From positions 32,116,001 through 32,180,000 of the forward strand of contig CM120642.1 in the NCBI GenBank assembly GCA_051362555.1: a stretch of DNA of 64,000 nucleotides. Reading direction: 5' to 3'. The translations under genes and the position numbers were made by a program. The number at the start of each line of letters is the position of its first letter. The first letter of the stretch is position 1. The notes beneath the pieces were generated by a model. That model did no database searches. It was not told the DNA's origin and saw nothing but the letters and a program-made list of their open reading frames with translations. This document shows positions 71-59,439 of this stretch, piece by piece. Source of the DNA: Lingula anatina (lineage: Eukaryota; Animalia; Brachiopoda).

Positions 71-59439
<59,369 letters not shown>

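What the first reader, a model, noticed from the sequence alone, without database searches (positions are those of the whole stretch)
8834..8854. Hidden 21-nt microexon that inserts a loop and a new cysteine into cadherin repeat ~EC20
Seen: a long pyrimidine tract with UGC near the AG, a TAG acceptor, a consensus GTGAGT donor and a stop-free 21-nt exon. Its phase matches the host intron. Inclusion changes ...AVNFSI-G-AIIL to ...[18 protein letters not shown], with the Cys built across the junction (T|GT). The host intron (3.66 kb) is much longer than the downstream introns, as expected for a regulated exon. Known: frame-preserving microexons with upstream UGC are targets of SRRM4/eMIC-domain proteins in bilaterian neurons. 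I recall insect Fat-like isoforms with a short insert ending in GPC at this position, but could not verify it. Inference: a tissue-specific, probably neural, switch altering ectodomain shape, binding or disulfide pairing.
Basis: partly seen in the sequence, partly recalled or inferred. Interest (0 to 1): 0.8.

Follow-up and report, generated by a model that had tools for sequence, protein, structure and literature searches.

The report
Ancient optional mini-exon in Fat-like cadherin
A 21-base optional exon in a giant Fat-like cell-adhesion gene is spliced in or skipped in RNA, has a counterpart at the same spot in molluscs, a ribbon worm and arthropods, and adds a short loop ending in a cysteine beside a predicted flexible joint, where it likely tunes the protein's shape or binding.

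Summary
Real. The exon (8854-8834, minus strand) is spliced in raw RNA reads: 33 and 34 reads on the two inclusion junctions, 18 on the skipping junction, over 8 runs of the same species label; per-run inclusion 11-100%, tissues unknown. The gene is a lophotrochozoan FAT1/2/3-kugelei orthologue; the repeat is EC21, not EC20. A 7-8 residue insert, nearly always ending (G)P-C, sits at the same junction in 7 of 10 lophotrochozoan and 43 of 79 arthropod genera examined (Cys in 48 of those 50), and in none of 42 invertebrate-deuterostome isoforms. Drosophila has probably lost it; the catalogued eMIC-dependent kug microexon is a different, cytoplasmic exon. The eMIC reading is weakened: the UGC lies at -27 and arthropod copies lack a proximal one, while four RBFOX-type TGCATG motifs lie just downstream. 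The loop sits beside a linker lacking calcium motifs; no partner cysteine is near. Neural specificity and function are untested. RefSeq models already contain the exon; ten paper searches found no description. The scan noted the arthropod counterpart before (e1-9136319).

The parts
8834..8854 (-). 21-nt alternative microexon (coding exon 13 of 24 modelled); adds AADTIGP and turns the junction Gly into Cys (residue 2276) in EC21
   Evidence: junction reads
10748..10972 (-). upstream flanking exon (end of EC20, EC20-21 linker lacking DxNDN, first half of EC21 lacking DxD); phase-1 donor G|GTAAGT
   Evidence: junctions 10748-8854, 10748-7087, 11439-10972
6966..7087 (-). downstream flanking exon; begins with GT, giving Gly (skip) or Cys (inclusion)
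   Evidence: junctions 8834-7087 and 6966-6537
8855..8907 (-). 3' splice-site region: 51-nt AG-free zone, candidate branch points at -53/-48/-42, UGC at -27, CU-rich tract (87% pyrimidine over 30 nt), TAG
8572..8654 (-). cluster of four TGCATG (RBFOX-type) motifs at +180, +193, +211, +257 of the downstream intron
   Evidence: 4 seen, 0.17 expected per 300 nt from 28 in 48,628 intron bases; Poisson P about 3e-5, noticed post hoc
495..59439 (-). host gene: Fat-like (FAT1/2/3, kugelei) cadherin, 24 coding exons modelled in the window, 3,439-codon open frame, EC1-EC32; continues beyond the window

Best explanation
This is an alternatively spliced microexon, shared by lophotrochozoans and arthropods, that lengthens one loop of cadherin repeat EC21 and ends it in a cysteine, and it likely works as a tissue-regulated switch on the shape or binding surface of the predicted flexible EC20-EC21 joint of the Fat-like ectodomain. 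Shown: both isoforms exist in RNA; the insert, its phase and its T|GTGAGT donor are conserved; the adjacent linker lacks calcium motifs. Inferred from the standard cadherin fold (own knowledge): the insert replaces the Gly of the D-E hairpin, which lies at the end of EC21 that faces EC20. Inferred: inclusion is likely raised in neurons and/or muscle, in this species more probably through the downstream RBFOX-type cluster plus a CU-rich acceptor than through a classic UGC/eMIC element. The Cys is likely kept by selection; whether it packs against the loop or bonds to another chain is open.
For: Junction reads: 33 (10748-8854), 34 (8834-7087) and 18 skip; inclusion in 7 of 8 runs, skipping in 5 of 8; per-run inclusion 0.11-1.0, heterogeneity chi-square P=0.048. 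Isoform pairs with and without the insert in Liolophura, Ostrea, Argopecten, Physella, Episyrphus, Tribolium, Anopheles and Toxorhynchites. Junction Cys in 48 of the 50 genera that show a 7-8 aa insert (plus Physella). In 15 of 15 arthropod genomic copies (4 distinct sequences) the donor -1 base, left free in the search pattern, is T, whereas the other 23 donors modelled in this gene all have G at -1, which would give back the canonical Gly. The EC20-21 linker lacks LDRE, DxNDN and DxD in all 6 proteins shown; such linkers bend in other cadherins (PMC8325961, passages). TGCATG cluster; Rbfox binds UGCAUG in flies and vertebrates, with position-dependent effects (PMC8742874, passages).
Against: Tissue of the runs is unknown and counts are small (85 junction reads), so 'tissue switch' rests on between-run differences only. 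The runs were listed by species label, not by holding the stretch, and most laid reads are 90-99% alike, so they may come from another population or a close relative. About 9 of 31 linkers in the window protein lack DxND (read), so lying beside one is not rare. No TGCATG within 600 nt downstream in 7 of 7 arthropod loci checked (of 15); only GCATG in 5 of them. Cys is replaced by Ser in Cylas and Adelges, and Drosophila appears to do without the exon. No structural model was obtained.
Confidence: 0.6

Rival explanations
1. It is a classic neuron-specific eMIC/SRRM234 target.
For: Length 21 nt; 51-nt AG-free zone (joint 5th of 23 acceptors), 87% pyrimidines and the highest CU-motif count of the gene, one UGC, a donor with a non-consensus -1 base. 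[quoted passage not shown] UGC is not strictly required (10.1101/2024.09.17.613571, section 10).
Against: The UGC is at -27, upstream of the CU tract. The 4 distinct arthropod copies have no UGC between -6 and -45. Pooled inclusion is about 65% in bulk runs. The fly kug exon known to be eMIC-dependent is a different, cytoplasmic exon.
Confidence: 0.35
2. The Cys forms an inter-chain disulfide, so inclusion makes covalent Fat-like dimers or links it to a partner protein.
For: Cys in 48 of 50 genera with the insert. It is extracellular, with no other Cys within 700 residues in the window protein and no column near it where both lophotrochozoans and arthropods keep a Cys.
Against: By the strand pattern (C-x-I, own knowledge) its side chain would face the same side as the buried Ile and may be packed. 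Ser replaces it in 2 genera. The window ectodomain has other lone Cys (1046, 3044).
Confidence: 0.25
3. Only the loop matters; the Cys is a by-product of a deliberately weak donor (T at -1) in front of a GT-starting exon.
For: The fly cytoplasmic kug microexon also ends in a junction-made Cys in Drosophila and Episyrphus but not in beetles or mosquitoes. Weak 5' sites mark fly eMIC exons.
Against: A or C at -1 would weaken the donor as well (giving Ser or Arg), yet T/Cys is kept in 48 of 50 genera, together with the preceding (G)P.
Confidence: 0.15
4. A cryptic or noise exon without function.
For: Read counts are low; the reads are not from the window's own individual.
Against: Inclusion outnumbers skipping; the exon is conserved across two protostome superphyla.
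Confidence: 0.02

Closest known systems
RefSeq isoform pairs of protostome 'protocadherin Fat 1-like' / 'fat-like cadherin-related tumor suppressor homolog' / 'FAT atypical cadherin kugelei' (e.g. Liolophura XP_064610099.1 vs XP_064610102.1; Episyrphus XP_055855766.1 vs XP_055855772.1)
   Same: Same junction, phase and (G)P-C end; both forms annotated.
   Different: Automatic gene models only; no paper on this exon was found in the ten searches. Residues before GP differ (AADTIGP here).
Drosophila kug microexon DmeEX0008375 (30 nt, eMIC-dependent, pan-neuronal; PMC8797185 tables S2 and S5)
   Same: Same gene family; short frame-preserving phase-1 exon; also makes a junction Cys.
   Different: Its RT-PCR primers translate to peptides found exactly on either side of a 10-aa exon in the cytoplasmic tail of D. 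erecta kug. At EC21 D. erecta shows only a 20-residue read-through, i.e. a 60-nt intron.
SRRM3/4 / eMIC-dependent neural microexons
   Same: Size, frame, long AG-free zone, CU-rich tract.
   Different: UGC position and conservation do not fit well; neural bias and dependence are untested.
Ectodomain splice inserts that switch binding in adhesion proteins (LAR-RPTP mini-exons meA/meB, teneurin splice inserts, neurexin SS4; recalled, no call)
   Same: A few residues added to a surface loop of an extracellular repeat by alternative splicing.
   Different: No ligand or effect is known here; cadherin repeat rather than Ig, beta-propeller or LNS domain; adds a Cys.

Membership tests
Alternatively spliced frame-preserving microexon | 3-27 nt, multiple of 3, GT-AG sites, no stop | tested here: met
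Alternatively spliced frame-preserving microexon | inclusion and skipping both seen in RNA | tested here: met
   33/34 inclusion and 18 skipping reads in 8 runs
FAT1/2/3-kugelei (Fat-like) cadherin | collinear orthology with 34-repeat Fat-like proteins | tested here: met
   best hits and collinear tblastn; repeat count; tree
eMIC/SRRM4-dependent neural microexon | UGC between the pyrimidine tract and the AG | tested here: not met
   UGC at -27, upstream of the CU tract; none at -6 to -45 in 4 distinct arthropod copies; the motif is not strictly required
eMIC/SRRM4-dependent neural microexon | long AG exclusion zone and CU-rich tract | tested here: met
   51 nt, 87% pyrimidine; arthropod copies shorter, 22-39 nt
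eMIC/SRRM4-dependent neural microexon | neuron-restricted inclusion | tested here: inconclusive
   inclusion 0.11-1.0 across runs of unknown tissue
eMIC/SRRM4-dependent neural microexon | loss of inclusion without eMIC | not testable with these tools
   needs knockdown or minigene
RBFOX-activated exon | UGCAUG cluster in the proximal downstream intron | tested here: met
   4 in 300 nt vs 0.17 expected
RBFOX-activated exon | motif conserved in orthologous introns | tested here: inconclusive
   no TGCATG in 7 arthropod loci checked, GCATG in 5; no lophotrochozoan intron available
Orthologue of Drosophila kug DmeEX0008375 | same position in the protein | tested here: not met
   fly exon is cytoplasmic

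The most novel reading that the evidence does not exclude
A splice switch dating from the last common ancestor of lophotrochozoans and arthropods puts a free cysteine on a calcium-free hinge of the Fat-like ectodomain, so that cells including the exon make a covalently linked or conformationally locked Fat-like cadherin; it was missed because Drosophila lost the exon and vertebrates lack it.
Probability: 0.2. Interest if true: 0.8.

Novelty: new member of a known kind. Interest (0 to 1): 0.55.

Why it matters
Deeply shared microexons are rare: fly eMIC exons show little conservation even with mosquito, beetle and bee, and only four sit at equivalent positions in flies and mammals (PMC8797185, passages). 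This one is kept from ribbon worms and molluscs to insects with an almost invariant cysteine. The ectodomain of Fat2/kugelei has no identified ligand or receptor and is hard to manipulate (PMC11269957, passages); a natural 7-8 residue switch gives a small, testable handle on it.

Tried and rejected
No whole genome is held for this window. No RNA holder was listed by the index; the nine runs came by species label, and 8 of the 9 were laid, 6-26% of each run read. Run X3 had no junction read. Identity with the fly eMIC-dependent kug exon: first ambiguous on distant dipterans, rejected on D. erecta. A shared intronic element with arthropods: local alignment of the acceptor region reached shuffle P=0.005 for L002 but 0.36 and 0.05 for L001 and L005, and another acceptor of the same gene scored nearly as high (30 vs 31), so rejected as unproven. 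An intramolecular disulfide partner: none near. A dimer or fold prediction was not obtained, so Cys exposure is untested. The PDB search with the upstream exon listed CELSR1, protocadherins and CDH23, and no Fat-family entry among the 60 of 70 shown. One search mislabelled its categories through a regex fault and was replaced; 'G' entries can come from a second repeat, so isoform pairs are taken only. Paper searches found no description of this exon. The library lacks most subscription papers, including the 2019 eMIC paper, whose tables, like VastDB and the bioRxiv supplements that I could not see, may list it.

Full report
Observation. On the minus strand the window holds a giant cadherin gene. 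Twenty-four coding exons from 59439 to 495 join into 3,439 codons without a stop and 32 cadherin repeats. Its best full-length hits are Fat 1-like / kugelei proteins. A quick maximum-likelihood tree of 24 proteins puts it inside the lophotrochozoan set (support 99), next to the nemertean Tubulanus (96); no annelid or brachiopod was in the tree. The candidate exon is at 8854..8834: 21 nt, acceptor CATTAG, donor T|GTGAGT, phase 1, inside the 3,660-nt intron 10747..7088. Inclusion gives [15 protein letters not shown] instead of FSI-G-AIIL. A scan for such exons expects 0.05 per resampled host intron. The repeat is EC21, not EC20.

RNA. The run search listed no indexed holder but nine raw RNA runs with the same species label. 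I laid eight, 6-26% of each. Reads on junction 8834-7087 / 10748-8854 / skip were: X1 1/3/1, X2 8/6/0, X4 1/0/4, X7 10/8/2; X3 0/0/0, X5 2/2/0, X6 12/10/9, X8 0/4/2. Totals are 34, 33 and 18, all with GT-AG ends; five more X6 reads end in the first eight bases of the exon. Inclusion per run ranges from 0.11 to 1.0 (chi-square P=0.048 on small counts; X2 versus X4 Fisher P=0.007, a pair picked afterwards). Caveats: tissues are coded, and most reads are only 90-99% alike to the window, so they may come from another population or a close relative. The exon is real and alternative; 'neural' is not tested.

Conservation. Among 120 full-length hits, a 7-aa insert sits at this junction in 7 of 10 lophotrochozoan proteins (one more has 17 aa, two none), and an 8-aa insert in 36 of 60 insect (20 none, 1 longer, 3 not located), 1 of 3 chelicerate and 1 of 1 crustacean proteins. 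None of 39 located deuterostome proteins has one (1 not located). Examples: chiton DMDVLGPC, oyster GMEHQGPC, scallop GTDALGPC, nemertean DMTKFGPC, insects APDSNNGPC, spider DPGYSNGPC, Artemia AHGTGNTPC. Isoform pairs with and without it exist in eight genera. By genus: 6 of 10 lophotrochozoan genera plus Physella (missed, seen) and 41 of 79 arthropod genera end in Cys; 2 end in Ser (Cylas, Adelges); 33 arthropod and 3 mollusc genera showed only the skip form, usually from one representative, which is uninformative. Of 44 invertebrate-deuterostome and lamprey isoforms examined, 42 were located and none has the insert. A pattern search of metagenome contigs gave 15 genomic copies of the 24-nt arthropod exon, four distinct sequences. 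All have T at donor -1, a position left free in the pattern, and two loci show the full three-exon layout with phase-1 introns and a GT-starting downstream exon. The other 23 donors modelled in the window's gene all have G at -1.

Relation to the fly. Table S2 of PMC8797185 lists a 30-nt kug exon as eMIC-dependent and pan-neuronal. Its primers translate to peptides that match exactly either side of a 10-aa exon in the cytoplasmic tail of D. erecta kug, so it is another exon. At EC21 the D. erecta X1 model carries a 20-residue read-through, which implies a 60-nt intron with no room for a microexon; loss in Drosophila is therefore inferred, while the hoverfly Episyrphus keeps it.

Regulation. 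The acceptor has a 51-nt AG-free zone, 87% pyrimidines and the gene's highest CU-motif count, as fly eMIC exons do. But its UGC is at -27, upstream of the CU tract, and the arthropod copies have none between -6 and -45; the motif is helpful but not essential in SRRM4 targets. UGCAUG is the Rbfox site in flies and vertebrates; that downstream sites enhance inclusion in neurons and muscle is my own knowledge. The arthropod loci do not keep the full motif (0 of 7 checked; GCATG in 5). The regulator is therefore open, with RBFOX favoured in this species.

Protein. From the standard cadherin fold (own knowledge), the junction is the D-E hairpin (F-x-x-D-x-x-T-G-x-I), at the end of EC21 that faces EC20. 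In all six proteins shown, EC20 lacks LDRE, the linker lacks DxNDN and EC21 lacks DxD: a predicted calcium-free joint, of the kind that bends in other cadherins. About 9 of 31 linkers in this protein are non-canonical, so the neighbourhood is suggestive only. Cys 2276 has no other Cys within 700 residues, and no neighbouring Cys column is shared by both protostome groups in a 24-protein alignment chosen for carrying the insert, so an intramolecular bond is unlikely. An inter-chain bond or a packing role remain; no structural model was obtained.

Verdict. Confirmed and more interesting than a species-specific cryptic exon: an ancient protostome microexon with a nearly invariant junction-built cysteine. 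It is a new member of a known kind. Automatic annotations already hold it, ten paper searches found no description, and this scan noted the arthropod counterpart on another genome (e1-9136319, found after my reading was formed). Papers seen: PMC8797185 (passages, supplement rows), 10.1101/2024.09.17.613571 (passages, section 10), PMC11269957, PMC8742874 and PMC8325961 (passages); others as search listings only.

Noticed in passing
window 6730-6940: Intronic repeat with several hundred RNA reads per run running on into unlike sequence; looks like a transcribed, high-copy interspersed element.
   Followed up: no
window 37130-37110 (- strand), 17-kb intron 3: Two overlapping microexon-like candidates (21 or 9 nt, shared donor) passed the same scan; 0.23 expected by chance in that intron.
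   Followed up: no
window 19007-14714 (intron in EC15): Ptychodera and Patiria have a different 8-aa alternative exon at this junction; the window's intron here is long (4.3 kb) but no candidate passed the scan.
   Followed up: partly
P0353 / P0355 (Physella) at the EC21 junction: Physella has a second, 30-nt alternative exon next to the 21-nt one; including both removes the Cys.
   Followed up: partly
P0115, P0116: Diaphorina and Nilaparvata gene models end by reading through the microexon donor (GPC-EY), an annotation artefact that reveals the same T|GTGAG site.
   Followed up: yes
P0353, P0362, P0240, P0329 near residue 3470-3510: Another short alternative exon in a late cadherin repeat is shared by snail, oyster and scallop (6 aa), with a 15-aa one at the same place in amphioxus; it lies at or beyond the window's end.
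   Followed up: no
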